Shown: positions 40,426-58,329 of the stretch, piece after piece
Numbering within the stretch: position 1 is the first letter of the stretch
Layout of the letters: every line of letters starts with the position of its first letter
Assembly: GCA_003173895.1 (NCBI GenBank)
Contig: PJMG01000012.1
Span: 35,448 to 99,447 of the forward strand
DNA: 64,000 nt
Reading direction: 5' to 3'
Source: Candidatus Levyibacteriota bacterium
GTDB lineage: Bacteria; Patescibacteriota; Microgenomatia; Levybacterales; UBA12049
Translations under genes and position numbers: made by a program
Notes under the pieces: generated by a model
Told to the model about the DNA's origin: nothing
Seen by the model: the letters and a program-made list of their open reading frames with translations, nothing else
Database searches by the model: none

Positions 40426-40680
40426 TTATAAACCTACACTAATGATGAAGTATAAAAGAGAGATACCTAAAATTCCAACGGCAAAATACTCTATCATTAC
40501 TTTAAATGAAAATGTGTGATGAAGTGCTTGATGTAAAATTCCCCATAAAACATAAAAGAGTGCCGTTAATGAAAGTATTTCTAATTGATAATTAATATTA
40601 CCTTTTAGACTACTAGCAAAACCAAATCCTAAAACTAGAATTAAGATAAGTATTGTATAGTGAAAAATATGTTTTTTCAT
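40426..40680 (-). CDS. Small 2-3 TM membrane protein
   Basis: 84-aa hydrophobic ORF with 4-nt overlap to the upstream CAP-domain gene. Confidence 0.35.
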   Translation of the reverse strand: MKKHIFHYTILILILVLGFGFASSLKGNINYQLEILSLTALFYVLWGILHQALHHTFSFKVMIEYFAVGILGISLLYFIISVGL

Positions 40681-41585
40681 GGCGTTATACTACCTGCTGT
40701 TAAAAATATTATAAATACTAAAATACCAGCAAAAAATAAAATGTGATCTAAATTGTGTCCAGATAATCTATAAATTTTTTTTCGCTGGACTATAAATAGA
40801 TCTAGTGAAAAAACTATAATAAATAGAATTATAAGAATTTGTGCTAAATTTTTAGCGAAATTAAATCTATTAATAAGTGATGCTTCACTTACCATTTCAT
40901 TTACAGGATTATTACTAGCATAAGCATTATTAATCAAATTTTTAGAATTATTATTATTGGACAATGGTGCATTTCCTTTACCCCCAAACATTTCGACTAT
41001 TAAAACAGTGTTTTTTTCACCTGTTAAAGTTCCTTCTTTAACGGAAAATCCTATATCTTGATAGTCAGGAGATAAAATATTTTCTCTATGAGATGGGCTA
41101 TTCATCCAAGCATCCATCACATCACCAGGTGTAGTAAATCCGCGAGCTAAATTTTCACCAGCATATGTATAGTTATAATTTTCTTTTTGTATAAAATACC
41201 ATGGAGTTTTACCACTGGGAGATATATGTGCCCAATAATTTTCTGCGAACATATTATCTGCTTTTAAATCAGCAGCTTGAGCTAATTCAGCATTATAATT
41301 TAGAGGTTTTAATCCATTTTCTTCTCTCTGCTGATTAGTTAAAACTAAAAGTTGTTGGGTAGAAATATTTACAGACAAACCTAAAACTTTAGGATAATTA
41401 TTTTTAACATAGGATAATGAAATAGAAGCAATTAAAAATATTCCAGCAATTAAAAGTAAAATATCGTTGTGGAGAATTTTAGGTTTATGATTATTACTTT
41501 TATGAGGAATAAAAAAGTGTCTAAAAATATTACGATAACTTCTATTCATAGAAACAGTATAACGTTTATGAATAAATGGGTGCAA
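40677..41585 (-). CDS. Membrane-anchored CAP/SCP/PR-1 domain protein
   Basis: TM anchor then CAP motifs (HISPSGKTPWYF ... GENLARGF ... VMDAWMNSPSHRENIL). C-terminal TM. The real start is probably the internal Met (MNRSYR) near 41549. Confidence 0.65.
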   Translation of the reverse strand: MHPFIHKRYTVSMNRSYRNIFRHFFIPHKSNNHKPKILHNDILLLIAGIFLIASISLSYVKNNYPKVLGLSVNISTQQLLVLTNQQREENGLKPLNYNAELAQAADLKADNMFAENYWAHISPSGKTPWYFIQKENYNYTYAGENLARGFTTPGDVMDAWMNSPSHRENILSPDYQDIGFSVKEGTLTGEKNTVLIVEMFGGKGNAPLSNNNNSKNLINNAYASNNPVNEMVSEASLINRFNFAKNLAQILIILFIIVFSLDLFIVQRKKIYRLSGHNLDHILFFAGILVFIIFLTAGSITP

Positions 41586-41889
41586 TAGATTTTTTTATAT
41601 TAAACTTTTTACTATTTAATTTAATCCCTAATGCATAAGAAATGGCCTGAGCGACAGAAATCCCTACTCTAAGTCCAGTAAAAGATCCAGGTCCTGTAAA
41701 AACCTCTATATCATCTAAATCTTTAAATTTTAATTTATTTTCTTTTAAGATTTCAACAATTAGTGGTAATAAAGTCTGACTTTTACGATTAGCAACTTTA
41801 GTTTTTTTTATTTTTTTAATACCAATACTTAATTTTACTTTAGCCAAATCCTTATCAGATGTGTCAATGAATAATTTTATATTTTTCAT
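41566..41889 (-). CDS. tsaB: TsaB (YeaZ) N-terminal fragment, 107 aa; possibly truncated
   Basis: LFIDTSDKDLAKVKL ... LPLIVEILKE ... DIEVFTGPGSFTGLRVGISVAQAISYALGI matches the TsaB N-terminal half. Full-length TsaB is ~220 aa. The ORF ends inside the CAP-domain gene. Confidence 0.55.
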   Translation of the reverse strand: MKNIKLFIDTSDKDLAKVKLSIGIKKIKKTKVANRKSQTLLPLIVEILKENKLKFKDLDDIEVFTGPGSFTGLRVGISVAQAISYALGIKLNSKKFNIKKSIAPIYS

Positions 41890-41930
41890 ATTTATTAATC
41901 AAATCCTATAGATATTTATCTTTTTAATAA

Positions 41931-42095
41931 AAAGTGAGCAAATATATATTTTAAAATGCATTGAAAGTTTGCTCTATGATAATTTTTAAATTTAATTTAA
42001 GTTTGGTAGCAAACTTTCACGAGCAAGAATGATATTTAATATTAATTTACAAAGCAATGTTTTCGAGCGTCTTTTAAAATATATTTTGCGAACTC
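41931..42095. repeat. Long (~165 bp) imperfect-palindrome dispersed repeat, copy 1 (upstream of tsaB)
   Basis: agtgagcaaatatatattttaaaatGCATTGAAAGTTTGCTctatgataattt...aagtttggtAGCAAACTTTCacgagcaagaatgatatt...gcgtcttttaaaatatattttgcgaactc. Internal GAAAGTTTGCT/AGCAAACTTTC and terminal tatattttaaaa/ttttaaaatata inverted segments. Confidence 0.6.
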
Positions 42096-42131
42096 AAAAC
42101 AAAATCAATCTTATTACAAACCTCTGCTAAC

Positions 42132-42713
42132 TTATAAATTAATTTTAATTACTCCTTCTCTTATAATTTTCCACTCTTTCCTTGTCACGTCAATTATAGT
42201 CGAAGACAACGAACCTTTACAAACTCCAGGTAATACAAAATCCACTTTCTCTAAAAGTTTTTGATCTAAATCTTCCAATTTAGAACTGGAAGGTTTACCA
42301 TGAAAATTAGCAGAAGTACCTATAATAGGAACACTGATTTTTTCAATTATCTCAAGCAGATTTTTATCATCAGGCATGCGAACTGCTACAGTATCTTTAT
42401 TAGAACGAACAATTTCCAGAACTTTATCTTTCTTAACTTTAGTTACAATTGTTAATCCTCCTGGCCAATATTTATTAATTAATTCTTCAATAACATTTTT
42501 ATTAAATGGCTCTACATACTTTTGAGCCATTTCTACTGAAGAAATTAAAATCGGTAAAGGTACCTTTTCCTTTCTTTTTTTAATTTCAAAAATTCTTTTT
42601 ATAGCTTTTTTATTATCAATCCTACACCCAATTCCAAAAACAGTATCTGTAGGAAAAATCACTACTCCACCATTTTTAAAAACCTCGATGGCTTTTTCTA
42701 AACTAGGATTCAT
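42132..42713 (-). CDS. tsaC: L-threonylcarbamoyladenylate synthase TsaC/YrdC
   Basis: YrdC fold signature (GGVVIFPTDTVFGIGC ... PLPILI ... VAVRMP ... GTSANFHGKP). Confidence 0.8.
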   Translation of the reverse strand: MNPSLEKAIEVFKNGGVVIFPTDTVFGIGCRIDNKKAIKRIFEIKKRKEKVPLPILISSVEMAQKYVEPFNKNVIEELINKYWPGGLTIVTKVKKDKVLEIVRSNKDTVAVRMPDDKNLLEIIEKISVPIIGTSANFHGKPSSSKLEDLDQKLLEKVDFVLPGVCKGSLSSTIIDVTRKEWKIIREGVIKINL

Positions 42714-42740
42714 AATTCAAACTATATTATAGTATAAAAA

Positions 42741-42800
42741 GTTTAATCAAAAGCGAGCAGAAGTATATTTTAAAACGCATTGAAAGTTTGCTCTATGATA
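42741..42800. repeat. Partial copy (left half) of the ~165 bp repeat, upstream of tsaC / overlapping tsaE 3' end
   Basis: aaagcgagcagaagtatattttaaaacGCATTGAAAGTTTGCTctatgataatttc, near-identical to the left arm of the copies at 41931 and 50763. Confidence 0.45.
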
Positions 42801-43300
42801 ATTTCTCTTTTATTCTCATCTAAAATCTCAAATTTTATTTCCCATCTTTTCTCAGGTAAAAATTTACCTAACTTTTCCGGCCATTCAATGGCTACAATAT
42901 TATTCTTTTCTTTTAAAATATCTAATAATCCTGTAGATTCTAAATCATTTTCATTTTCTAAACGATATAAATCCGCATGATAAAAATTACTAAATTCTTC
43001 AATCTTAACCTTATTTACATTTTTCACTTTTAACTTTTCACTTTTAACTTTATAGCTTCTTACTATTATAAATGTTGGGGAGATAATTCTGTGCTTTATA
43101 CCTAAACCTTTAGCTAACCCTTTAACAAATTGCGTTTTACCTGCTCCTAAATTACCATATAAACAAATGACATCTCCTATTTCTAATTTTTTTGCAAAGT
43201 CAAATCCTAACTTCTCAGTTTCTTCACTACTATTAGTTACCAAAATTTTTTTAAATTTATTTTCCCTTTTTTCCATAACTGAAATCCTAATATACCACAT
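42770..43300 (-). CDS. tsaE: tRNA t6A biosynthesis ATPase TsaE
   Basis: Walker A GNLGAGKTQFVKG; SPTFIIV; YHADLYRL motif. Contains a K/V-rich ~20-aa insertion encoded by a 14-nt tandem duplication. The annotated start overlaps the upstream gene by 64 nt; the true start may be a downstream non-ATG codon. Confidence 0.7.
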   Translation of the reverse strand: MWYIRISVMEKRENKFKKILVTNSSEETEKLGFDFAKKLEIGDVICLYGNLGAGKTQFVKGLAKGLGIKHRIISPTFIIVRSYKVKSEKLKVKNVNKVKIEEFSNFYHADLYRLENENDLESTGLLDILKEKNNIVAIEWPEKLGKFLPEKRWEIKFEILDENKREIIIEQTFNAF

Positions 43301-44118
43301 GATAATAGCAAAATAAAAACTCCAATAAAAATATAGATCACATTTGCGCTATTATTCACATTCTTAGTACTGTTTTTATTAGTTTTTTTAACACTTGTAC
43401 CTAGTACTTCACCTTTCCATAAATTATTATCAATGGTCACTGAAGGAGAATCTGTAGCTGTAGAGGACTTTGTAGCAGCCGTATTCGGTTTTAAATCAAC
43501 TTTCGTAGGATTTCTAGTCGGAATTTTCGTCGCTGTAGGAATAGGAGTATTGGTAGGAGACTTAGAAGTAGGCAAAGGCGTAGGCGTATTCGTAGGGTTT
43601 GGTGTTGGTGTGGGAGTATCAGTCGGGGTAGGCGTAGGAGGAACTGTAATATTTACAGTCACAATATTAGACCAAGTAGCAGTACTTCCCGTTTCAGTAT
43701 AACGCCCAATTTTCAGGTCGTAAGATCCACTTCCTGTTGTAAAGTTTGGATCGTCAGAGTCTATTCTTCCTTGAATATCACCATTCCAAACTCCATTATT
43801 ATCAGTAGTAATACTTAAAAAACTGGAATAATTTATAGGAGGTGGTGTCCCGTTATACCAACCAGTACCATTATAAGTGGATCCAAAATAATTAGAAGTT
43901 CCAGTTGGGGCTAAAGCCAGACGTAAACGATAGATCGCATTTTTAGAAAGTCCACTCATAGTAGCAGTTACATTAAAAGAAGTATCCAGAGTTAGAGTAT
44001 CCGTTGGGTAAGAAATAATAGTTGGTGCGGAAGCAAGAATTTTATTGGGGAAAAATAGAAAGATTAAAAGTAAAAAAAGAATTTCAAAAAATTTTCCAAG
44101 CTTCAGGGCAGCTCTCAT
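43237..44118 (-). CDS. Secreted/membrane-anchored protein with Pro/Thr-rich linker
   Basis: Signal peptide, beta-rich N-domain, (PTxT)n linker PTPTPTDTPTPTPNPTNTPTPLPT, C-terminal TM + basic tail. Confidence 0.5.
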   Translation of the reverse strand: MRAALKLGKFFEILFLLLIFLFFPNKILASAPTIISYPTDTLTLDTSFNVTATMSGLSKNAIYRLRLALAPTGTSNYFGSTYNGTGWYNGTPPPINYSSFLSITTDNNGVWNGDIQGRIDSDDPNFTTGSGSYDLKIGRYTETGSTATWSNIVTVNITVPPTPTPTDTPTPTPNPTNTPTPLPTSKSPTNTPIPTATKIPTRNPTKVDLKPNTAATKSSTATDSPSVTIDNNLWKGEVLGTSVKKTNKNSTKNVNNSANVIYIFIGVFILLLSCGILGFQLWKKGKINLKKFW

Positions 44119-44156: not shown

Positions 44157-45365
44157 TTATAATATTTGCACTCGATCTACTTCTACGATAGGCTCTGTGG
44201 GATATGTACCTCTGAAAGAAATATCATGTCCATTTGGAGTAAAAGGATCATTCATTTGATAGTTACCATTAGATCCACTTATTAAAACTACGAAATGATC
44301 TGCTATTGGTCCACCATCATAACTAATACCTACGATTACTGGATCACCACCTGATAAAACACTATCTATAGAAGCATTAGCTCGTTGAGCACTTACGCCC
44401 CCTGCAGAAATGGTAAATAAAAGATAAGCTGTAGAAGAGAAAAAGTTTGAGGAGTTAGAATTTATATCCAAAGGTGTAACTTTATGTCCATAATGGGTTA
44501 TTACCATAGCCATACTAGTCATCAAGCACCCATAACTAGCTATAGACGAATCTGTTCCATTAATTCCTATACCTCCCCACTGTGAATCTCTTTGATTATA
44601 ATAACAGCCCCACCCATCACAAACTGTTTGATTAGACAGAAGACTAGCTCCTCCCTGAGCAGCTACGAAATTTCCAAAACCAGCCAATTGTGCTTTAGCT
44701 TGGTTCAGTAAATGTTGATAATTTTCTTCACTATTTTGAGTTTCTGTAAGTAAAGTCTGTTTTTGAGTTTTTTGTGTATTTAATTGATCAGTATATTGTT
44801 GAAGCTGAGCTTGTAAAGATACCACTTGCTGTTTTTTAGTTTCTAGAATTTGTTTTTGGTTAGTGTAATCATCTTTAGCCTGCACTGTAGCGAATGCTAC
44901 TTGTCTATCATTAGCTTCTACTATTTGTAAATAATTCTCGCGATTCACAAAATCGCTTATATTATTAGATGCTAAAATAGATTGAATAGGCGGTTGTGTA
45001 CCTACTTCATAACTTTTTCTAATTCTATTATAGAAAATCTTACTTAAAGTCTGAAAAGCATTATTCAAACTTCCTATTTTTTGAGTTGTACTATCTATAT
45101 CTTCTTCAAGAGAAATAATTTGTGCTTGAGTCGCATCTATTCTAGCTTGGGTTAATTCAATTTGCCCATTCATTACGGCTATTTGATTAGAAAGTGTATT
45201 AGCTTGCCCTTTCAAATCCGTAAGTTTACTTTGGAGAGAATTTATAAGATTTTGACAGTCAGCTTGAGAAGAACACGAAACATCGTCAGCTAAAGTTTTA
45301 TTGGCTGATAAATTAAATACGATAAATAAAGCTAAAACAATGGTAAAAATCTTCAGAAATTTCAT
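44157..45365 (-). CDS. Secreted coiled-coil protein with C-terminal papain-like (peptidase C39_2/CHAP-like) domain; PcsB/EnvC-like FtsEX partner candidate
   Basis: Signal peptide and ~230-aa coiled-coil rich in Q/L heptads. C-terminal domain has a Cys motif (SYGCLMTSMAMVITHYG) and His motif (ADHFVVLISG). Located directly downstream of ftsE-ftsX. Confidence 0.55.
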   Translation of the reverse strand: MKFLKIFTIVLALFIVFNLSANKTLADDVSCSSQADCQNLINSLQSKLTDLKGQANTLSNQIAVMNGQIELTQARIDATQAQIISLEEDIDSTTQKIGSLNNAFQTLSKIFYNRIRKSYEVGTQPPIQSILASNNISDFVNRENYLQIVEANDRQVAFATVQAKDDYTNQKQILETKKQQVVSLQAQLQQYTDQLNTQKTQKQTLLTETQNSEENYQHLLNQAKAQLAGFGNFVAAQGGASLLSNQTVCDGWGCYYNQRDSQWGGIGINGTDSSIASYGCLMTSMAMVITHYGHKVTPLDINSNSSNFFSSTAYLLFTISAGGVSAQRANASIDSVLSGGDPVIVGISYDGGPIADHFVVLISGSNGNYQMNDPFTPNGHDISFRGTYPTEPIVEVDRVQIL

Positions 45366-45383
45366 ACTTCTAAATTTTTAACT

Positions 45384-45451
45384 TGTCATCCTGAGCAACG
45401 CGAAGGATCTCATTCTATAGATAGAGATTCTTCACTTCGTTCAGAATGACA
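45384..45451. repeat. Palindromic dispersed repeat (TGTCATCCTGAGC...GTTCAGAATGACA)
   Basis: 68-bp element with perfect 13-bp terminal inverted repeats and central cgaaggatctcattctatagatagagattcttcac palindrome. Inverted-orientation twin at 51312-51379. Confidence 0.6.
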
Positions 45452-45479
45452 AATGAGTTTTAACGAAGCAAATTTAAAT

Positions 45480-46349
45480 TTATTTTAAATATCTATAAAC
45501 CGCAATCAAGCTAGAATAAAGACCTAGTAGTACTGCTAAGATAATTTCAAAACCTAAAAGAGCCAGTAAAAAGTAAGGATTTGCAGGAAGCACTGGAATA
45601 CCTTTTAGAAATGACATTAAATAGGGAGTAGCATATAAAAGAGTACCTGTAGTAATCACCCAACCTAAAACTGCTCCTACTAAAGCATAAAAAATTCCTT
45701 CATACACAAAAGGCCAAGCTATGTATAAATTAGTCGCGCCAATTAAACGCATTATTTCTATATCTTCTCTTTTTTGTGAAACTTTAATGCCAATTATGGT
45801 AGCCATTATAAAAAGTGAAACTAGGATTAATGTACCTATTAGCACTAATCCTATTTTTCGAACGGCACCAGTCCAAGAAACTAAAGTAGAAACTATATCT
45901 TGTTGATAAACTACTTGATCTACGATAGTAGAACTTTTTACTTGCGAGGCCAGGCTAGCTAAATCATCTATATTATTAGCGGAAATTTCTAAAGACGCGG
46001 GAAGTATATCTGCTGTTACTAGTTGCAATAACAAGGGATCATTTTTATTTTGTGCTTTATATAATTGTAATGCTTGTTCTTTAGAAACAAATTTTAAACT
46101 GGAAACTTTACCAGTAGCTTTAAGTTGATTTTCTAAAGTAGTTATTTGAGCTGGAGTAGCTGCATCTTGGAAAAATGCAGTGACTTGAGGTTTGGATTCA
46201 AAATAATTAATTACTATTTGTGATCCAACAGTTATAAAACCAAATGCTGAAATTACCATAAAAGTAAGAAGCATTATAAAAATAGCAGCTAGTGCCTGAT
46301 ATGGCGAACGTCTGATATGATGATATGCTGTTTTTATATGTTTTTTCAT
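45480..46349 (-). CDS. ftsX: Cell division permease FtsX
   Basis: N-terminal TM, periplasmic domain, C-terminal 3-TM FtsX-like bundle. 2-nt gap to ftsE. Confidence 0.8.
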   Translation of the reverse strand: MKKHIKTAYHHIRRSPYQALAAIFIMLLTFMVISAFGFITVGSQIVINYFESKPQVTAFFQDAATPAQITTLENQLKATGKVSSLKFVSKEQALQLYKAQNKNDPLLLQLVTADILPASLEISANNIDDLASLASQVKSSTIVDQVVYQQDIVSTLVSWTGAVRKIGLVLIGTLILVSLFIMATIIGIKVSQKREDIEIMRLIGATNLYIAWPFVYEGIFYALVGAVLGWVITTGTLLYATPYLMSFLKGIPVLPANPYFLLALLGFEIILAVLLGLYSSLIAVYRYLK

Positions 46350-46351
46350 AT

Positions 46352-47365
46352 CTATTTTTTAAACTTAAATCTCTCAGCTAATTTTCCACCAAAAAGTCCT
46401 TTTTTAATCTGAGGTTTTTCTTCATCTATTCTATCTTTTTCAATTGTTTCGTCCTCTAAATTTTTTTCTTTTTTATGATCTTCTTTATGTTTGGATTTAT
46501 CTACTGGTATTTTTTCATCAACTTTTTCATGTTCTACTCTATCTTCAACTTCTTCTTTTTTATCTTTATTTTTTTCATCCAAAGGATGATCAGCCTTTGG
46601 ATGAATTTTCTCATGTTTATCTTTTACTTTTTCTTTAGCTTCTTTTACATTTTCCATTTTCTCTTCATCCAATTTTTCCTTCTCATTCTTACCATTTTTC
46701 TTAGAATCTGAGATCATTTTTCCACTATCTAATTTTATAACTCTATTTTTAGGATATTTTTTTAAAATTTCTAAATTATGTGTAGCCATAATTATTGTTG
46801 TGCCTGCTGCCTTATTAATAGTATCTAAAAGCTCTACTATTCCAAATGCTGTATCAGAATCTAAATTACCAGTTGGTTCATCAGCTAAGATCATCAAAGG
46901 ATCTAAAGTTAAAGCACGAGCTATAGCTGCTCTCTGAAGTTCTCCTCCTGAAAGTTGAATAGGAAATTTATCTTTATGTTCCATAATCCCTACTTTTTCT
47001 AGAAGTTCTAAGGCTTTATTCAAAGCCTCTTTTGGATGAGATCCTCTGATCTCAAAAGGTAGTAGAACATTTTCTAGAATGGTCTTATCATTTAAAAGTT
47101 TTAAATCTTGGAAAACCACTCCGATTTTAGACCTTAAAGCAGGAATTTTATTTTTAGGGAGTTTAGAAATATCTACTTCTTCTATAGTTATAACTCCGCT
47201 ACTAGGAAGATATTCGCGAATTAAAAGTCTAAGAAGTGTAGTTTTACCCGAACCAGTGTGTCCTACGAGAAAAACAAATTCCCCTTTATCTATTTCTAGA
47301 TTTAGAGTATCTAGTCCAATAGTACCTGTGGAAAAAGTCTTTGAAACATCAGTTAAAACAATCAT
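46352..47365 (-). CDS. ftsE: Cell division ATP-binding protein FtsE with ~120-aa K/E/D-rich C-terminal tail
   Basis: Walker A GHTGSGKTT, signature LSGGELQR, Walker B ILADEPTGNLD, H-loop ATHN. Residues ~215-337 are a low-complexity charged extension (KEKVKDKHEKIHPKADHPLDEKNKDKKEE...). Confidence 0.85.
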   Translation of the reverse strand: MIVLTDVSKTFSTGTIGLDTLNLEIDKGEFVFLVGHTGSGKTTLLRLLIREYLPSSGVITIEEVDISKLPKNKIPALRSKIGVVFQDLKLLNDKTILENVLLPFEIRGSHPKEALNKALELLEKVGIMEHKDKFPIQLSGGELQRAAIARALTLDPLMILADEPTGNLDSDTAFGIVELLDTINKAAGTTIIMATHNLEILKKYPKNRVIKLDSGKMISDSKKNGKNEKEKLDEEKMENVKEAKEKVKDKHEKIHPKADHPLDEKNKDKKEEVEDRVEHEKVDEKIPVDKSKHKEDHKKEKNLEDETIEKDRIDEEKPQIKKGLFGGKLAERFKFKK

Positions 47366-47833
47366 CTAGTTTTCCACCTCCACACGTCCTACATCCATGA
47401 GCCAACCTGCTGTTTGAGCTTTTTGTGTGGCTCCATTGACTTTAACTTTATGATTTATAAACATAGATAAATCAACTGAAGATGAGGTTAAATAAACATA
47501 TTGAGATGGGCCTCCACTCCGGACTAAATGATATTGTCCTTCGTTATTAATGCCTCCTTTTTGTAATACACCTTCAGCACTATCAGGGAAGGAAGATAAG
47601 TTACTAGCTCCAAAAACCATTCCTTTTGAGACAGCTGTTTTACTACCTGTAGTCGATGACATTACCTGACTCGCTGAACCAGTAGTCATTTTAAATACCA
47701 AATAACCCACAGAAGCTCCAACTACTATAGTAAATATTAAAAATAAAATGGCGCCCATTGGAGGATTTTTCTTATTTTTCTCCTCAAATTTATGAAACGC
47801 CTGATTATTACTTTGTGCACTTTGTTCTTCCAT
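47366..47833 (-). CDS. Membrane-anchored hypothetical protein upstream of ftsE
   Basis: Single N-terminal TM (AILFLIFTIVVGASVGYLVF), ~100-aa extracytoplasmic domain; stop abuts the ftsE start. Confidence 0.4.
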   Translation of the reverse strand: MEEQSAQSNNQAFHKFEEKNKKNPPMGAILFLIFTIVVGASVGYLVFKMTTGSASQVMSSTTGSKTAVSKGMVFGASNLSSFPDSAEGVLQKGGINNEGQYHLVRSGGPSQYVYLTSSSVDLSMFINHKVKVNGATQKAQTAGWLMDVGRVEVEN

Positions 47834-47929: not shown

Positions 47930-48238
47930 ATGTTTGTGATAAAAGATGTTTTAATCACTTTGATCTCTGTATTAGGTGGTTATAAATTTAGCGACTATAT
48001 TATCGGTAAAAAAGCTAAAAAATTACATTTTTTGGGTTATAAGATTTCTAAAAAACATCATGTTCATCACAGTATGTATGGATTAGTTCCCTTCTTTATC
48101 GCTCCTTTTACTCTGGCTAATATTACACTCACTATTACTATAGTAGGATTTGGTATAGGAATTATAATAGAACACACAGTACATGAAGGATTTGTTTTTA
48201 TAAATAAAGTAGAAAAGGAATTAAGTAATATTGATTAA
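47930..48238 (+). CDS. Small membrane protein (102 aa)
   Basis: Three hydrophobic segments; no motif. Confidence 0.3.
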   Translation: MFVIKDVLITLISVLGGYKFSDYIIGKKAKKLHFLGYKISKKHHVHHSMYGLVPFFIAPFTLANITLTITIVGFGIGIIIEHTVHEGFVFINKVEKELSNID

Positions 48239-48924
48239 TTTAGTATTTCAATAATCTCAGGATCCCATGTAAGTGAAGCATTAGTTAGTTGATCACATTC
48301 AATATCATATTCTCCGTGTCTATTCTCAATATTAGTTGGAAATGGATCTAAAACATGAAACATATTATCTTTGTATCCTGTTACTAAAACAAAGTGTCCT
48401 TCAAGTCCTCCTTTAATATCATCTACTATTCTTTCTTTTCCTACCATTTTTAGTCTATGACCCCATGCCCAATCTTCATCAATGCAAAGAATTACTAAAG
48501 ATTTTTTATCTAACATGTCTTTAATAGTTTGGGATGAATATGATTTCTGTTCTAGATCTCCACCGTCTTCAAGATAATCTAAAATATATGTAACTTCCTT
48601 ACGCCAGAGATTCTTTGGATGAAAATTAAGCCATTCCTTAATATTTTCAATTAATTTATCTTTTGGTAAATCTCGCCAAGCGTAGGATAATACCTTGCTA
48701 GTTGAAGTAACTAGTTTTGTTTTTATTCCGTTCTTATGTACATGTGAAACAAGTTGAGCTGCATAGGTTGGTTTACCTCTTTTAGGATGCCCAAAGTCTT
48801 TTAGAACATCTCCTAACTTTATATCTTTACCTTTCATGGAATATACCATAGCTACACAACATGGGCCACACGTATATGAGTTTGATGCTTGAAATATATG
48901 AATATTTTTATATTTACTATCCAT
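48235..48924 (-). CDS. Cytoplasmic papain-like cysteine peptidase, C39-like (peptidase_C39_2-type)
   Basis: Q-x9-C nucleophile context (IFQASNSYTCGPCCVAMV), His motif (EGHFVLVTGY), downstream Asp (VLDPF). No signal peptide. Confidence 0.5.
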   Translation of the reverse strand: MDSKYKNIHIFQASNSYTCGPCCVAMVYSMKGKDIKLGDVLKDFGHPKRGKPTYAAQLVSHVHKNGIKTKLVTSTSKVLSYAWRDLPKDKLIENIKEWLNFHPKNLWRKEVTYILDYLEDGGDLEQKSYSSQTIKDMLDKKSLVILCIDEDWAWGHRLKMVGKERIVDDIKGGLEGHFVLVTGYKDNMFHVLDPFPTNIENRHGEYDIECDQLTNASLTWDPEIIEILN

Positions 48925-48928
48925 AAAC

Positions 48929-49687
48929 TTATTTTAACATTTTCCTTATTTCTTTTAAATTATTTTCAAGTATTTTAAATTTTTCATTTTTATCAATAGT
49001 TTCAAACTTGAAAATTTCAAATGCTATTGTTCCATTCCAATTTAACTTTTTAATTAGTTTCAATAATTTTTTGATTGGTAAATTCCCTGTAAATAAAGGT
49101 AGATGTTGATTTCCATTTTTATAGTCACTTAAGTGAATTAATTTTATTCTCTTATGATACTGATTAAAAAAATCAATAATATTTATATCAAACGTTCCTA
49201 AATGTGATGTATCCATGGTCATATTTAAATCATTCTTAATACAAAAATTAGCAAAGGCTTCAGGATTAGTCCCTTCTTTATTTACTAAAGAGGCCATGTT
49301 AGTAGTTCCACTTTCAAATGAAATAATTACATTATTTTTTTCACCCCATTTATTAATTTTTTCAATCAAATTTAATCCATTTAAAAATATAGGTTTTCTA
49401 AAATTAAATAAATGAAAATTTAGGACTGGATTTTTAGTATTTGTTAGCTCTAATGCTTTTTTAAGAGTTTTTCTGAGAAAAAAATCACTTTCAAAAAAAA
49501 ACATTAAACGGGGTTCATGTAAACAAACTACAAATTTTTTTTGTTCTTCGGTTAATTTAGTATTTTTATAAAAATCTGAAAGACCCATGTCATAGTCTAA
49601 TCCATCAAAACTAGCTTTTTTCGCGAAATTATAAATTTCATTAAACGAAGAATCTTTAAGAGTGGTAGATAGAGTAATTTTTAGCAT
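48929..49687 (-). CDS. Xylose isomerase-like TIM-barrel (sugar phosphate isomerase/epimerase) family protein
   Basis: Weak: IKLIHLSDYKNGNQHLPLFTGNLP ... GTIAFEIF resembles the H-L-x-D ... E metal-site segments of AP endonuclease 2/xylose isomerase-like folds. Confidence 0.4.
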   Translation of the reverse strand: MLKITLSTTLKDSSFNEIYNFAKKASFDGLDYDMGLSDFYKNTKLTEEQKKFVVCLHEPRLMFFFESDFFLRKTLKKALELTNTKNPVLNFHLFNFRKPIFLNGLNLIEKINKWGEKNNVIISFESGTTNMASLVNKEGTNPEAFANFCIKNDLNMTMDTSHLGTFDINIIDFFNQYHKRIKLIHLSDYKNGNQHLPLFTGNLPIKKLLKLIKKLNWNGTIAFEIFKFETIDKNEKFKILENNLKEIRKMLK

Positions 49688-49688
49688 C

Positions 49689-50696
49689 TTAAGTCAATAA
49701 GCGTAGTTCTTCTTCTATAAATTTATCCAAATTTCCATTTAAAACACCTGCAGTATCAGAAGTTTCATACTGCGTCCTTAAATCTTTAACCATGTGATAT
49801 GGGTGTAAAACATACGAGCGAATTTGATTTCCCCATCCAGGCGTTTTATATCCACCTTTTAGTGCTGCTTCAGCTTTTTTACGTTCTTCTTCCTGAATTA
49901 ACCAAAGTTTAGCTTTAAGCATACGTAGAGCATATTCACGATTCTGAAGCTGAGATCTTTCTGTTTGGCAAGTTATGACAATTCCTGTAGGTTTATGTTT
50001 TAAACGAACTGCAGAAGAAACTTTATTTACATTTTGTCCTCCGTGTCCACCTGCTCTAAAAAATTCCCATTCTAAATCTTCATCTTTTACTTCTACATCA
50101 CTATCATTTTCTATTTCTGGAAGGACTTCTACTAAAGCAAATGAAGTCTGACGTAAATTATCCGCGTTAAACGGAGATTGGCGAACCAGTCTATGAGTTC
50201 CTGCTTCAAACTTTAAAAATCCATAAGCATAAGATCCTGTTATTTCTATAGTTATACTTTTAAATCCTGCTTCATCACCTGGTGTTTGATCTATAATTTC
50301 ATATTTCCAACCTTTTTTTTCTATAAATCTGGTATACATACGAAATAAAATTTCACACCAATCCATAGCTTCAGTTCCACCCTGGCCCGAATGAATAGAT
50401 AAAATAGCATTACTCTGATCATGAGCTCCAGAGAAATACAAAAACATTTCCAGTTTTTCTACTATTTTTTCAGCTTCTTCTAAATTATTTTCTTCAAGAT
50501 ACAGCTGAAGCATTTCTATTTCCTCTACTTCTTTTTGCAAATCAGAAAGTTGCTTCATCTTTTCAGATGCGCTTTTATGATCTTGCCAGAAAACAGGATT
50601 TTCACTCTCTTTTTGAAGAGATGTAATTTTTTCTTTTTTAGAATTTATATCCAGTTTTTCTATTATTTTTTCAGCTCGGGCTTTTAATTCATCCAT
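49689..50696 (-). CDS. prfB: Peptide chain release factor 2
   Basis: GGQ motif ([17 protein letters not shown]) and SPF tripeptide (RQSPFNADN), which is RF2-specific. ORF is continuous with no programmed +1 frameshift site. Confidence 0.85.
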
Positions 50697-51311: not shown

Positions 51312-51379
51312 TGTCATTCTGAACATAGTGAAGAATCTCTATCTATAGAATTAGATCCTTCACGTTGCTCAGTATGACA
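51312..51379. repeat. Palindromic dispersed repeat (inverse-orientation twin of 45384-45451)
   Basis: TGTCATTCTGAACatagtgaagaatctctatctatagaattagatccttcacGTTGCTCAGTATGACA is approximately the reverse complement of the 45384 copy. Confidence 0.6.
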
Positions 51380-57418: not shown

Positions 57419-58329
57419 ATATGAATCTTTCTAAAGCTCAAAATAACTCTATGCGAAAAATTCTTCAAATTTTTGAGCCAATACTTAATAGAATTATTGA
57501 TTCTAAACTTTCTCCCAATGAAATTTCACTTTTAGGACTTAATAAATCAATTCATGGTTTAAATAAAATTTTTAATTCTAAAAATATATCGGTTAAATTT
57601 TATGGTTTTTATTTATTCTCTTTTGGTGAATTCCTAGATCTCTTAGATGGCATCCGCGCCCGATCTCAGGGTAAAGCAAGAAGCGTAAAGGGTAAAGAAA
57701 AAACACATCAAAAACTTTACATTTCACCCTTAACTCTTAACACTTTAAACGGTCAGCTTCTCGATGGTTTCTGTGACCGTGTTAAAGAATTTTATTATTT
57801 TTATAAAAAAACAAATTTTAATAAGCAATTTGGAATTTCTTGTATTTTACCTAGCATTGCCCGTGCTGCTAATGAACTTTTAAATCAAACAGTTTCTGAA
57901 AAAGATGAAAAAGGTGGAAGTATGTTAGATAGAACCAGATTAATTTTTATTTCATTATTTTTTTACATTTTAGGTTTTACCAAAAAATCTCTACAAATAG
58001 ATCAAATAATTTATGAAAGAAATTTAGCCACTTTTAGTAATAGAATTAATAAAATAAATTTTGAAAAATTAGAAAAATATCCACCAGCTGGCGGAGAAAA
58101 GGATTTAAATGAATTTCAAAAAAAAGCACTAATTCGTTTGAAATTTTATTTAAAACTATATAAAGAAGAACAGTTAGTTTGTCATTCTGAACAAGGCGAA
58201 GAATTTCAATTTATAAAAAAATTAGATCAATTAAAAATTTTAAAATCCGTAAATTTAAAAAATGAAGAAAAATTATTTAGCTTATTTAATAATTTTTTTC
58301 CGATAAATAAATGCTATCATTCCCAATGA
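57403..58329 (+). CDS. K/N-rich hypothetical protein (308 aa) with CDP-alcohol phosphatidyltransferase-like D-G-x2-A-R ... G-x3-D-x3-D segment
   Basis: DLLDGIRARSQG ... GQLLDGFCD fits the D-G-x2-A-R-x(n)-G-x3-D-x3-D motif order, but with a 29-aa rather than 8-aa spacer and weak TM content. Contains an in-frame repeat fragment at 58181-58207. Confidence 0.3.
   Translation: MIKYAHMNLSKAQNNSMRKILQIFEPILNRIIDSKLSPNEISLLGLNKSIHGLNKIFNSKNISVKFYGFYLFSFGEFLDLLDGIRARSQGKARSVKGKEKTHQKLYISPLTLNTLNGQLLDGFCDRVKEFYYFYKKTNFNKQFGISCILPSIARAANELLNQTVSEKDEKGGSMLDRTRLIFISLFFYILGFTKKSLQIDQIIYERNLATFSNRINKINFEKLEKYPPAGGEKDLNEFQKKALIRLKFYLKLYKEEQLVCHSEQGEEFQFIKKLDQLKILKSVNLKNEEKLFSLFNNFFPINKCYHSQ

What the first reader, a model, noticed from the sequence alone, without database searches (positions are those of the whole stretch)
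44157..47833. FtsE-FtsX followed by a secreted coiled-coil protein with a papain-like (C39_2/CHAP-like) domain; FtsE carries a long charged tail
The gene order ftsE, ftsX, coiled-coil hydrolase reproduces the PcsB (Streptococcus) / EnvC-amidase logic, in which FtsEX ATP hydrolysis activates a peptidoglycan hydrolase through a coiled-coil partner. Here the catalytic domain looks like peptidase_C39_2 (Cys in SYGCLMTSMAMV, His in DHFVVLISG) rather than CHAP or LytM. FtsE also has an unusual ~120-aa K/E/D-rich C-terminal extension not present in model FtsE proteins. A small membrane protein gene (47366-47833) abuts the ftsE start and may be a fourth component.
Basis: partly seen in the sequence, partly recalled or inferred. 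Interest (0 to 1): 0.5.

Follow-up and report, generated by a model that had tools for sequence, protein, structure and literature searches.

The report
FtsEX-linked C39-type cell-wall hydrolase cassette
An ultrasmall (Patescibacteria/CPR) bacterium carries a cell-division operon in which the FtsEX membrane motor sits next to a secreted coiled-coil enzyme whose cutting domain is a C39-type cysteine peptidase rather than the types known from model bacteria, together with a conserved small membrane protein of unknown function.

Summary
Window 44157-47833 (minus strand) encodes four tightly packed genes:
- a 155-aa single-pass membrane protein ("small155");
- FtsE, with a 121-aa K/E/D-rich tail;
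- FtsX;
- a 402-aa secreted protein with a PcsB/EnvC-type coiled-coil hairpin and a C-terminal Peptidase_C39_2 domain, in which Cys280, His357 and Asp373 are invariant.

In 80 related genomes (mostly Levybacteria/Microgenomates), 75 have ftsX immediately upstream of the hydrolase gene. All 65 loci with enough upstream sequence have small155 abutting ftsE. The four-gene core is never interrupted, whereas both flanks often are.

The FtsE tail is real but is a variable low-complexity spacer (5-118 aa in relatives), not a conserved domain.

Most likely this is an FtsEX-driven peptidoglycan peptidase for cell division. That makes it a new variant of a known kind: a fourth partner-domain type plus an undescribed accessory protein. 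No biochemistry exists.

The parts
47366..47833 (-). small155: 155-aa bitopic membrane protein with a short K-rich cytoplasmic N-terminus, a TM segment at residues 23-50, and a highly conserved extracytoplasmic domain of about 85 aa. Candidate fourth subunit.
   Evidence: ORF and TM segment. It has 792 homologues, none with a Pfam domain or a name. 30 positions are invariant across 32 sequences. It lies adjacent to ftsE in 65 of 65 loci with enough upstream sequence, with a median gap of 18 nt and never an insertion. It has no Pfam, NCBIfam or PDB sequence relative.
46718..47365 (-). FtsE ATPase core (residues 1-216), with Walker A G35-T43, LSGGE at 138, Walker B ILADE at 159-163 and H-loop at 194-197.
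   Evidence: ABC_tran 115.7 bits. TIGR02673 FtsE is the best hit at 235 bits with full model coverage. Motifs located.
46352..46717 (-). FtsE C-terminal tail (residues 217-337 plus stop). It is a low-complexity K/E/D-rich spacer ending in a short basic-hydrophobic motif, KKGLFGGKLAERFKFKK.
   Evidence: Composition: K33, E23, D13, net charge 0. The coding DNA is 73% purine. Tails in 68 relatives range from 5 to 118 aa, with a median near 30, and cannot be aligned. The nearest relative has a 47-aa tail ending KGGKAIFAGKIKDREK.
45480..46349 (-). FtsX permease-like subunit (289 aa), with four TM segments and an extracellular domain at about residues 49-158.
   Evidence: Pfam FtsX_ECD 68.2 bits and FtsX 49.9 bits. 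NCBIfam FtsX_Gpos 179.7 bits and FtsX_Gneg 173.1 bits, both below equivalog cutoffs. PDB FtsX chains match at E 1.8e-16 to 1.4e-7. TM segments.
45385..45450 (.). 66-nt palindromic repeat element inserted in the ftsX-hydrolase spacer. It is not a conserved part of the system and explains the unusually long 114-nt gap in this window.
   Evidence: The RNA hairpin folds at -39.2 kcal/mol, z -6.6. A second copy lies at 51313-51378 and a half copy at 58181-58205. It is absent from all 80 related loci. The median ftsX-hydrolase gap elsewhere is 14 nt.
45285..45365 (-). Signal peptide of the hydrolase (residues 1 to about 26; likely cleavage after TLA).
   Evidence: Hydrophobic segment at residues 1-26. 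This is the least conserved part of the family. The cleavage site is judged by inspection only.
44658..45266 (-). Coiled-coil domain (residues 34-236). Two long antiparallel helices (58-122 and 136-209) are joined by a low-confidence tip (121-131), with shorter helices at 34-52 and 213-236. Predicted FtsX-binding module.
   Evidence: AF2 secondary structure. The family profile matches EnvC residues 31-233 at E 2.3e-6. CC_PcsB matches 32 of 36 members, best E 4.5e-8. The top Foldseek hits are 8tzl_E EnvC, 4cgk PcsB, 8idc_E RipC and 6tpi_A EnvC.
44160..44657 (-). Conserved linker (residues 237-247) and Peptidase_C39_2 catalytic domain (248-402). Features: invariant C249/C254 hairpin (probable disulfide), the YYNQRD motif (Q258 is the candidate oxyanion residue), catalytic Cys280 (44526-44528), His357 (44295-44297) and Asp373 (44247-44249).
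43237..44118 (-). Downstream 293-aa surface protein with a signal peptide, a globular N-domain, a Pro/Thr-rich linker and a C-terminal TM anchor. It is a frequent but not universal neighbour, and its association with the system is uncertain.
   Evidence: No Pfam family. TM-like segments at both ends. About 52 of 69 loci have a protein of the same design (260-300 aa) directly downstream. tblastn recovers it in only 35 of 80 loci, at 25-59% identity.

Best explanation
This is a four-gene operon (small155-ftsE-ftsX-hydrolase) encoding a Type VII ABC 'mechanotransmission' machine that controls a peptidoglycan peptidase.

Proposed mechanism:
- FtsE dimers bind and hydrolyse ATP in the cytoplasm.
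- FtsX transmits the conformational change to its extracellular domains.
- Those domains clamp the tip of the hydrolase's roughly 10-nm antiparallel coiled-coil hairpin.
- This releases or positions the C-terminal C39_2-fold Cys-His-Asp peptidase, which cleaves a peptide bond in the stem or cross-link of the cell's own peptidoglycan during septation or growth.
- small155 is most likely an extracytoplasmic accessory subunit. It would be analogous in role, not in sequence, to the SweC/SweD cofactors of B. subtilis FtsEX-CwlO.
- The FtsE tail is a disordered charged spacer. In this subclade it may carry a short terminal basic-hydrophobic motif.

Shown: gene content, domain identities, invariance of the triad, homology of the coiled coil to EnvC/PcsB, and uninterrupted synteny.

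Inferred: physical FtsX-coiled-coil contact, ATP-dependent activation, the peptidoglycan substrate and the bond cleaved, and the roles of small155 and the tail.
For: Domain calls.

Coiled coil. The family profile aligns with the EnvC coiled coil over about 200 residues (E 2.3e-6). Whole-model Foldseek puts the EnvC, PcsB and RipC chains of FtsEX complexes at ranks 1, 2, 4 and 11.

Catalytic domain.
- C280, H357 and D373 are invariant in 36 sequences. The motifs are retained in 33-40% identical relatives.
- The model has pLDDT 92.9.
- Distant members of the domain family are fused to two LysM peptidoglycan-binding domains or to a PcsB-type coiled coil.
- The closest viral structural matches are virion-associated lytic proteins.

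Synteny. 75 of 80 loci have ftsX upstream, 73 of 80 have ftsE, and 65 of 65 testable loci have small155. Median intergenic gaps are 18, -2.5 and 14 nt. The core is never interrupted, while RF2->small155 is interrupted in 22 of 55 loci and hydrolase->tsaE exceeds 1 kb in 20 of 69.

The FtsE ATPase motifs are intact.
Against: - There is no biochemical or genetic evidence for any member of the family.
- The whole-model Foldseek E-values are marginal (1e-3 to 1e-1), and coiled coils attract spurious matches.
- Five of 80 relatives, plus one distant one, are not next to ftsEX. The same is true of pcsB and cwlO in their organisms.
- Nearly all evidence comes from one lineage in which unrelated housekeeping neighbours (prfB, tsaE/C/B) are also syntenic.
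- C39 peptidases classically cleave peptide leaders, not cell wall.
- A recent C39-like archaeal protein was reported with glycosidase-type activity, so the fold does not fix the substrate.
- Catalytic geometry and any autoinhibitory contact could not be inspected because no coordinates or PAE are exposed.
Confidence: 0.7

Rival explanations
1. The C39_2 domain is not the cutter. Like the degenerate LytM domain of EnvC, it would act as a regulated activator or adaptor that recruits and switches on a separate hydrolase such as an amidase.
For: The coiled coil is most similar in sequence to EnvC, which is an activator and not an enzyme. PcsB itself shows no in vitro activity as isolated, according to the review read.
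Against: EnvC's LytM domain has lost its catalytic residues. Here the Cys/His/Asp triad and the YYNQRD motif are invariant in 36 sequences and kept at 33-40% identity, which argues for selection on catalysis. No amidase gene is linked to the cassette in the window or in the 80 loci.
Confidence: 0.08
2. The protein is an extracellular protease for proteins or peptides, for example maturation of surface or secreted proteins as in classical C39 leader-peptide processing. Its position next to ftsEX would then reflect FtsEX-type regulation of a non-wall substrate, or mere neighbourhood.
Against: Classical C39 domains are cytoplasmic N-terminal domains of ABC exporters, whereas this one is secreted and fused to an EnvC/PcsB-type coiled coil. 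Pfam Peptidase_C39 proper is below threshold at 14.6 bits against 22. The top structural match is a cell-wall peptidase that does not cleave double-glycine substrates. Relatives carry LysM domains.
Confidence: 0.1
3. The hydrolase is aimed at the host's cell wall rather than the bacterium's own. It would be a weapon or feeding tool of an epibiotic CPR cell, with FtsEX-type gating to protect the producer.
Against: The cassette sits among housekeeping genes (prfB, tsaE/C/B). It is single-copy in each locus and nearly universal in the lineage, as expected for a core division function. All characterised FtsEX-coiled-coil systems act on the cell's own wall. No immunity-like gene is evident.
Confidence: 0.07
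4. The FtsE tail and small155 have no functional connection to the system. The tail would be neutral low-complexity expansion in an AT-rich genome, and small155 merely a conserved neighbour.
For: Tail length varies from 5 to 118 aa with no alignable sequence, and its DNA is 73% purine and 27% GC, typical of slippage-prone AAA/GAA runs. Unrelated genes are also syntenic in this lineage.
Against: For small155: there are 30 invariant positions, 47% identity is retained where the hydrolase keeps only 40%, the gaps to ftsE are overlapping or tiny, and there is never an insertion even though both flanks are interrupted. For the tail: some charged tail is present in most relatives, and a similar terminal motif recurs in the nearest relatives.
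Confidence: 0.3

Closest known systems
PcsB-FtsEX of Streptococcus pneumoniae
   Same: Both are secreted proteins of about 400 aa with a signal peptide, a long coiled coil, a linker and a C-terminal papain-superfamily Cys-His hydrolase. CC_PcsB Pfam matches 32 of 36 family members. PDB 4cgk is the rank-2 Foldseek hit. A prfB-ftsE-ftsX neighbourhood is also seen in pneumococcus (own knowledge).
EnvC-FtsEX of E. coli and Vibrio cholerae
   Same: EnvC gives the best sequence-profile match to the coiled coil, over about 200 residues including the hairpin tip that binds the two FtsX ECDs (E 2.3e-6). 8tzl_E is the rank-1 Foldseek hit.
   Different: EnvC ends in a catalytically dead LytM (M23) domain and works by activating the amidases AmiA/AmiB. 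Here the C-terminal domain is a different fold with an intact catalytic triad.
CwlO (B. subtilis) and RipC (M. tuberculosis), with the cofactors SweC/SweD
   Same: Both are direct FtsEX-activated coiled-coil endopeptidases. 8idc_E and 8jia_E (RipC) are among the top Foldseek hits. JGI names family members 'peptidoglycan hydrolase CwlO-like protein'. B. subtilis needs extra small membrane cofactors (SweC/SweD; mentioned in the review, and own knowledge), which is conceptually like small155.
PeiR, C39-fold pseudomurein endoisopeptidase of a methanogen virus (PDB 8z4h)
   Different: PeiR is an archaeal-virus lysin acting on pseudomurein. It has no coiled coil and no FtsEX link. Sequence similarity is too low for HMMER to detect.
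Classical C39 bacteriocin-processing peptidase domains (ComA, PCAT1, LahT) and C39-like proteins (B. anthracis 3erv)
   Different: They are cytoplasmic N-terminal domains of ABC exporters that cleave double-glycine leaders. PF03412 is below threshold here. This protein is secreted and carries an EnvC/PcsB coiled coil.

Membership tests
FtsEX-associated coiled-coil cell-wall hydrolase/activator class (EnvC, PcsB, CwlO, RipC) | Secreted protein with a long antiparallel coiled-coil hairpin homologous to those that bind the FtsX ECDs | tested here: met
   The profile matches the EnvC coiled coil at E 2.3e-6. CC_PcsB matches 32 of 36 members. The AF2 helices and top Foldseek hits point the same way.
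FtsEX-associated coiled-coil cell-wall hydrolase/activator class (EnvC, PcsB, CwlO, RipC) | C-terminal peptidoglycan-hydrolase-type domain, active or degenerate | tested here: inconclusive
   The domain is a papain-superfamily fold with an invariant triad. Its nearest structure is a cell-wall peptidase, and relatives carry LysM fusions. No activity on peptidoglycan has been shown.
FtsEX-associated coiled-coil cell-wall hydrolase/activator class (EnvC, PcsB, CwlO, RipC) | Physical binding to FtsX and ATP-dependent activation | not testable with these tools
   Only genetic linkage could be tested: 75 of 80 loci are adjacent to ftsX, with a median gap of 14 nt. No multimer modelling was available.
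PcsB (NCBIfam NF046104 equivalog) | Full-length match above the cutoff, and a CHAP catalytic domain | tested here: not met
EnvC (NCBIfam NF008644 equivalog) | Full-length match above the cutoff, and a degenerate LytM/M23 domain | tested here: not met
   20.4 bits against a cutoff of 270, confined to the coiled-coil region. There is no Peptidase_M23 hit.
CwlO/RipC type | NlpC/P60 catalytic domain | tested here: not met
Pfam Peptidase_C39_2 (PF13529) | Score above the gathering threshold | tested here: met
   29.0 bits against 24 for the window protein. 35 of 36 family members match at E up to 0.001, and distant members reach 54 bits.
Pfam Peptidase_C39_2 (PF13529) | Catalytic Cys and His, with a third acidic residue, in papain-like topology | tested here: met
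   C280, H357 and D373 are invariant. Cys lies at a helix N-terminus, and His and Asp flank adjacent strands. The inter-residue distance was not measurable.
Classical Peptidase_C39 (PF03412; bacteriocin-processing) | N-terminal cytoplasmic domain of an ABC exporter, with a score above threshold | tested here: not met
   14.6 bits against a gathering score of 22. The domain is C-terminal in a secreted protein.
FtsE (TIGR02673 equivalog) | Score above the equivalog cutoff, and pairing with FtsX | tested here: inconclusive
   It is the best of 200 ABC families, with end-to-end model coverage, but scores 235.3 bits against a cutoff of 264.85. It is adjacent to ftsX with a 2-nt gap in the window, and overlaps it in 35 of 68 relatives.
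FtsX (Pfam FtsX_ECD + FtsX; NCBIfam FtsX models) | FtsX-type extracellular domain plus a C-terminal permease-like 4-TM module | tested here: met
   Both Pfam domains are above gathering scores. PDB FtsX chains match down to E 1.8e-16. The NCBIfam equivalogs are below cutoff (179.7 against 225 and 173.1 against 255), as expected for a divergent lineage.

The most novel reading that the evidence does not exclude
Microgenomates-type Patescibacteria divide using a four-subunit wall-cleaving machine unlike any characterised one. FtsEX would drive a C39_2-fold cysteine peptidase, a fold not previously tied to FtsEX or to bacterial septal hydrolysis. It would do so together with an obligatory, entirely undescribed extracytoplasmic membrane subunit (the small155 family: about 800 members, no Pfam). 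The hypervariable charged FtsE tail with a terminal basic-hydrophobic motif would act as a lineage-specific tether to the membrane or the divisome.
Probability: 0.35. Interest if true: 0.65.

Novelty: new variant of a known kind. Interest (0 to 1): 0.5.

Why it matters
FtsEX-coiled-coil systems are the paradigm for how bacteria gate dangerous wall hydrolases from the cytoplasm. Only three partner domain types are described: dead LytM, CHAP and NlpC/P60. The 2024 review read does not mention C39, and no paper in the held library pairs FtsEX with Peptidase_C39.

A fourth, C39_2-type partner would have several consequences:
- It would show that the coiled-coil/FtsX interface is a portable module onto which different cutters have been grafted.
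- It would assign a wall-remodelling role to a large 'C39 family peptidase' or 'hypothetical' family. That family has more than 1,000 close members and 2,433 representative clusters for the domain.
- It would give a concrete, testable handle on cell division in uncultivated CPR bacteria.
- The conserved small155 protein would be a candidate new regulator that can be tested by co-expression.

Tried and rejected
- The look-up of encoding contigs on the window's own hydrolase found no record, and the listing of cluster members gave no accession or name. The source organism is therefore inferred only from its relatives.
- A literature search for the PDB codes 9JG8, 9JDD and 9JG9 returned only irrelevant papers. 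I suspected 9jg8 might be an FtsEX complex, but a PDB search with FtsX shows it is not. I could not find the paper on the T6SS effector 9jdd. The one hit, on giant Omnitrophota genes, mentions C39 only as a putative self-processing domain.
- phmmer of the catalytic domain alone against the PDB found nothing. The domain profile gave only weak hits, some spurious (MS2 coat protein).
- The promoter/terminator scan was uninformative, with fewer promoter-like sites than in shuffles.
- The AFDB50 fold library was unavailable, so the taxonomic spread of the full architecture in UniProt could not be surveyed.
- small155 has no remote homologue by Pfam, NCBIfam or PDB profile search.
- I expected the coiled-coil tip to be the most conserved part of the coiled coil, and it is not (0.68, against 0.69-0.70 for the arms). 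The linker and the start of the domain are the most conserved.
- The hairpin between ftsX and the hydrolase gene looked at first like a regulatory attenuator. It is a genome-specific repeat that is absent from relatives.
- Several record titles of related loci (Gammaproteobacteria, Methylomirabilota, Eisenbacteria and others) conflict with the shared synteny. I did not trust them for taxonomy.

Full report
**Observation**

The window is AT-rich (about 30% GC). Region 44157-47833 carries four co-directional minus-strand ORFs:
- small155 (47366-47833, 155 aa);
- FtsE (46352-47365, 337 aa);
- FtsX (45480-46349, 289 aa);
- a 402-aa protein (44157-45365).

The gaps between them are 0, 2 and 114 nt.

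Pfam and NCBIfam confirm the identities.
- FtsE matches ABC_tran at 115.7 bits. Its best NCBIfam family is TIGR02673 FtsE at 235 bits, with model positions 1-214 of 214 aligned to residues 1-216. This is below the equivalog cutoff of 264.85.
- FtsX has FtsX_ECD (68.2 bits) and FtsX (49.9 bits), both above gathering scores.
- The 402-aa protein has Peptidase_C39_2 at residues 255-374 (29.0 bits against a gathering score of 24), plus many coiled-coil hits including CC_PcsB and the PcsB and EnvC NCBIfam models.

The FtsE nucleotide-binding motifs are intact, FtsX has four TM-like segments, small155 has one (residues 23-50), and the hydrolase has an N-terminal signal-like segment.

**Family and distribution**

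The hydrolase has at least 1,097 homologues in the 5.8-billion-protein collection. The top 120 are all 53-67% identical and about 400-445 aa long. Where named, they are called 'peptidoglycan hydrolase CwlO-like protein' (JGI), 'C39 family peptidase' or 'hypothetical protein' (NCBI), from Patescibacteria, Levybacteria and Roizmanbacteria MAGs.

A pattern scan of one genome per GTDB species found 328 genomes with a relative.

A 36-sequence alignment (A1) shows 63% mean column identity. Invariant residues include C249, C254, Q258, R259, D260, C280, H291, H357 and D373. Across the family, 35 of 36 members match Peptidase_C39_2 and 32 of 36 match CC_PcsB.

I ran tblastn with the window's proteins against the 80 best loci.
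- ftsX lies immediately upstream of the hydrolase gene in 75 loci, and ftsE in 73.
- small155 is present in 65. The loci that have ftsE but lack small155 are all cut off by the contig end, so small155 is present in 65 of 65 testable cases.
- Median intergenic distances are 18 nt (small155->ftsE), -2.5 nt (ftsE->ftsX, overlapping in 35 of 68) and 14 nt (ftsX->hydrolase).

Unrelated housekeeping genes (prfB upstream; tsaE, tsaC, tsaB and a CAP-domain gene downstream) are also syntenic in this lineage, so I ran a control.
- The three internal junctions essentially never contain an insertion: 0 of 65, 0 of 71 and 1 of 75 exceed 400 nt, and none exceeds 1 kb.
- The prfB->small155 junction exceeds 400 nt in 22 of 55 loci.
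- The hydrolase->tsaE junction exceeds 1 kb in 20 of 69.

The four genes therefore behave as one unit.

The arrangement persists in more distant relatives. L082 (hydrolase 40% identical) has RF2, small155 (47% identical), ftsE, ftsX and the hydrolase. L081 (33% identical) has ftsX directly upstream.

Five of the 80 loci and one distant relative are stand-alone copies in other contexts. This parallels pcsB and cwlO, which are unlinked to ftsEX in their hosts (own knowledge).

**Coiled coil**

The full-length AF2 model has mean pLDDT 81. It shows two long antiparallel helices (58-122 and 136-209, roughly 10 nm) joined by a low-confidence tip (121-131), plus shorter helices at 34-52 and 213-236.

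A profile of A1 hits the E. coli EnvC chain from the FtsEX-EnvC cryo-EM structure (8hd0_E) at E 2.3e-6. The alignment runs across about 200 residues, including the segment that corresponds to EnvC's FtsX-binding hairpin tip.

Foldseek of the whole model against the PDB ranks these chains highly:
- V. cholerae FtsEX-EnvC (8tzl_E), rank 1;
- PcsB (4cgk), rank 2;
- M. tuberculosis FtsEX-RipC (8idc_E), rank 4;
- EnvC-FtsX ECD (6tpi_A), rank 11;
- the RipA N-terminal domain (6ewy), rank 18.

The E-values are only 1e-3 to 4e-2. Taken together with the HMM match, I regard homology of the coiled-coil module to the FtsX-binding modules as well supported.

The tip is not more conserved than the arms. 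The most conserved non-catalytic stretch is the linker 226-247, with 10 of 22 positions invariant. This hints at a regulatory or autoinhibitory role, which is an inference.

A domain-only model of residues 236-402 has pLDDT 92.9 and pTM 0.89.

In the model, Cys280 begins helix 280-291, His357 begins strand 357-365, and Asp373 follows strand 368-372. This is the canonical papain-like layout. Coordinates are not exposed, so distances were not measured.

- no CHAP domain in the top 60.

PeiR is described as a C39-scaffold enzyme with a Q-C-H active site. It cleaves methanogen cell-wall stem-peptide analogues and does not cleave double-glycine leader peptides (PMC13642728). This is a direct precedent for a C39 fold acting on wall peptides.

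An exhaustive profile search with the domain finds 2,433 representative clusters at E up to 1e-3, and 312 at up to 1e-10. Most of the top 150 are about 400 aa with the domain at the C-terminus. Among ten distant representatives sampled, several keep the coiled coil and C39_2 architecture, and two carry two LysM domains plus C39_2. LysM is a peptidoglycan-binding module (established knowledge), which supports a wall substrate.

The best viral structural matches are a tail tape-measure protein and a multidomain 'lysozyme', that is, virion-associated lytic proteins (E 1e-4 to 5e-4).

The invariant C249/C254 pair lies in a β-hairpin at the start of the domain and probably forms a disulfide, consistent with secretion. 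It is absent in distant relatives.

**FtsE tail**

The 121-aa extension is real. Its composition is K33, E23, D13, net charge 0, and its DNA is 73% purine and 27% GC.

In 68 relatives the tail ranges from 5 to 118 aa, with a median near 30. It is K/E/D/H-rich and cannot be aligned. The closest relative (hydrolase 67% identical) has only 47 aa.

So a charged tail is typical of the lineage, but it is a hypervariable low-complexity spacer. The window's copy is the longest seen, together with L002.

A short basic-hydrophobic motif recurs at or near the tail end in the nearest relatives: KKGLFGGKLAERFKFKK, KGGKAIFAGKIK and GNGLFSAFKKVSFGL. Other subclades end in GKISL[DE]xL or DDFEEALK. Its function is unknown, and a membrane- or divisome-tethering peptide is speculation.

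**small155**

The family has 792 homologues, all unnamed and without Pfam domains. The extracytoplasmic C-terminal domain of about 85 aa has 30 invariant positions in 32 sequences, with the consensus ...GS.DT.TFKDTAEG.L..GGI.GEGQYHLVRPGGDSQNVYLTSS.VDLS.F...KVKVWGQTQKAQ.AGWLMDVGRVEV.

No remote similarity was found in Pfam, NCBIfam or PDB sequences. Given the uninterrupted, often overlapping junction with ftsE, I consider it a probable accessory subunit. By analogy only, it could play the role that SweC/SweD play for B. subtilis FtsEX-CwlO.

**Mechanism and rivals**

The best explanation (confidence about 0.7) is an FtsEX-gated peptidoglycan peptidase acting on the cell's own wall during division or growth.

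The rivals are:
- an EnvC-like non-catalytic activator, disfavoured by the invariant triad;
- a protein or peptide protease, disfavoured by secretion, the coiled-coil homology, PeiR and LysM;
- a host-directed lysin, not excluded but disfavoured by the housekeeping context and near-universality.

The tail and small155 might also be functionally irrelevant. That is plausible for the tail's bulk and unlikely for small155.

**Comparison with what is known, and novelty**

The protein works like PcsB, CwlO and RipC but is not a member of any of those families. The PcsB and EnvC equivalogs score 23 and 20 bits against cutoffs of 450 and 270. CHAP, M23 and NlpC/P60 domains are all absent.

The 2024 FtsEX review lists only LytM, CHAP and NlpC/P60 partners and never mentions C39. 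No paper in the held library combines FtsEX with Peptidase_C39, or CPR with PcsB, CwlO or COG3883. CPR papers only record the presence of ftsE and ftsX.

Database annotation already recognises each half separately. I therefore rate this as a new variant of a known kind, of moderate interest (0.5). It would rise if small155 proves to be a real subunit.

**Limits**

- All functional statements are inferences from sequence, models and synteny.
- Taxonomy rests on the record titles of relatives.
- AFDB50 was unavailable.
- No multimer modelling or coordinate inspection was possible.

Noticed in passing
window 45385-45450, 51313-51378, 58181-58205: A palindromic intergenic repeat of about 66 nt, with arms GTCATYCTGARC...GAAGRATC and loop TCTATCTATAGAAT. 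There are two full copies and one half copy in the window. The copy between ftsX and the hydrolase gene folds into a -39.2 kcal/mol hairpin (z -6.6). It is absent from all 80 related loci, so it is a genome-specific REP/MITE-like element.
   Followed up: partly
window 47930-49687: A window-specific insertion lies between prfB and small155. It comprises a xylose-isomerase-like TIM-barrel protein (48929-49687), a 229-aa C39/C39_2 peptidase without a signal peptide (48235-48924; Pfam 41.9 and 34.6 bits) and a 102-aa plus-strand membrane ORF (47930-48238). None occurs in the 80 related loci. The C39 protein belongs to a rare family of 25 proteins and is only distantly related to the hydrolase domain (22% identity).
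   Followed up: partly
window 43237-44118: A gene for a 293-aa protein with a signal peptide, an unknown N-terminal domain, a Pro/Thr-rich linker and a C-terminal TM anchor lies directly downstream of the hydrolase gene. It has no Pfam match. A protein of the same design occupies this position in about 52 of 69 relatives but evolves fast. It could be a fifth associated surface component or just a neighbour.
   Followed up: partly
window 46574-46605: A perfect 12-bp-stem inverted repeat (TTCATCCAAAGG ... CCTTTGGATGAA) lies inside the FtsE tail coding region, where it encodes ...IHPKADHPLDE.... It was picked up by the terminator scan on the opposite strand. Its significance is unknown, and it may relate to the tail's expansion.
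   Followed up: no
window 40677-43300 and 49689-50696: The conserved housekeeping flanks are RF2 (prfB, apparently uninterrupted at 335 aa) upstream, and tsaE, a Sua5/YciO/YrdC-family gene (tsaC), a short tsaB-like ORF (107 aa) and a CAP/SCP-domain membrane protein downstream. The same order is seen in most relatives. The presence of RF2 fits the standard genetic code.
   Followed up: no
L001-L080 (record titles): Many related MAG contigs with the same Patescibacteria-type synteny carry titles such as 'uncultured Gammaproteobacteria', 'Methylomirabilota', 'Eisenbacteria', 'Acidiferrales' or 'Sulfotelmatobacter'. These are probably placeholder or mis-assigned taxonomy in the third-party assemblies.
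   Followed up: no
P0357 (3803 aa), P0379 (3691 aa), P0367, P0387: The same C39_2-type domain also occurs inside giant proteins of 1,000-3,800 aa among the representative hits. A preprint on giant Omnitrophota genes mentions C39 domains in such proteins. I did not examine these further.
   Followed up: no
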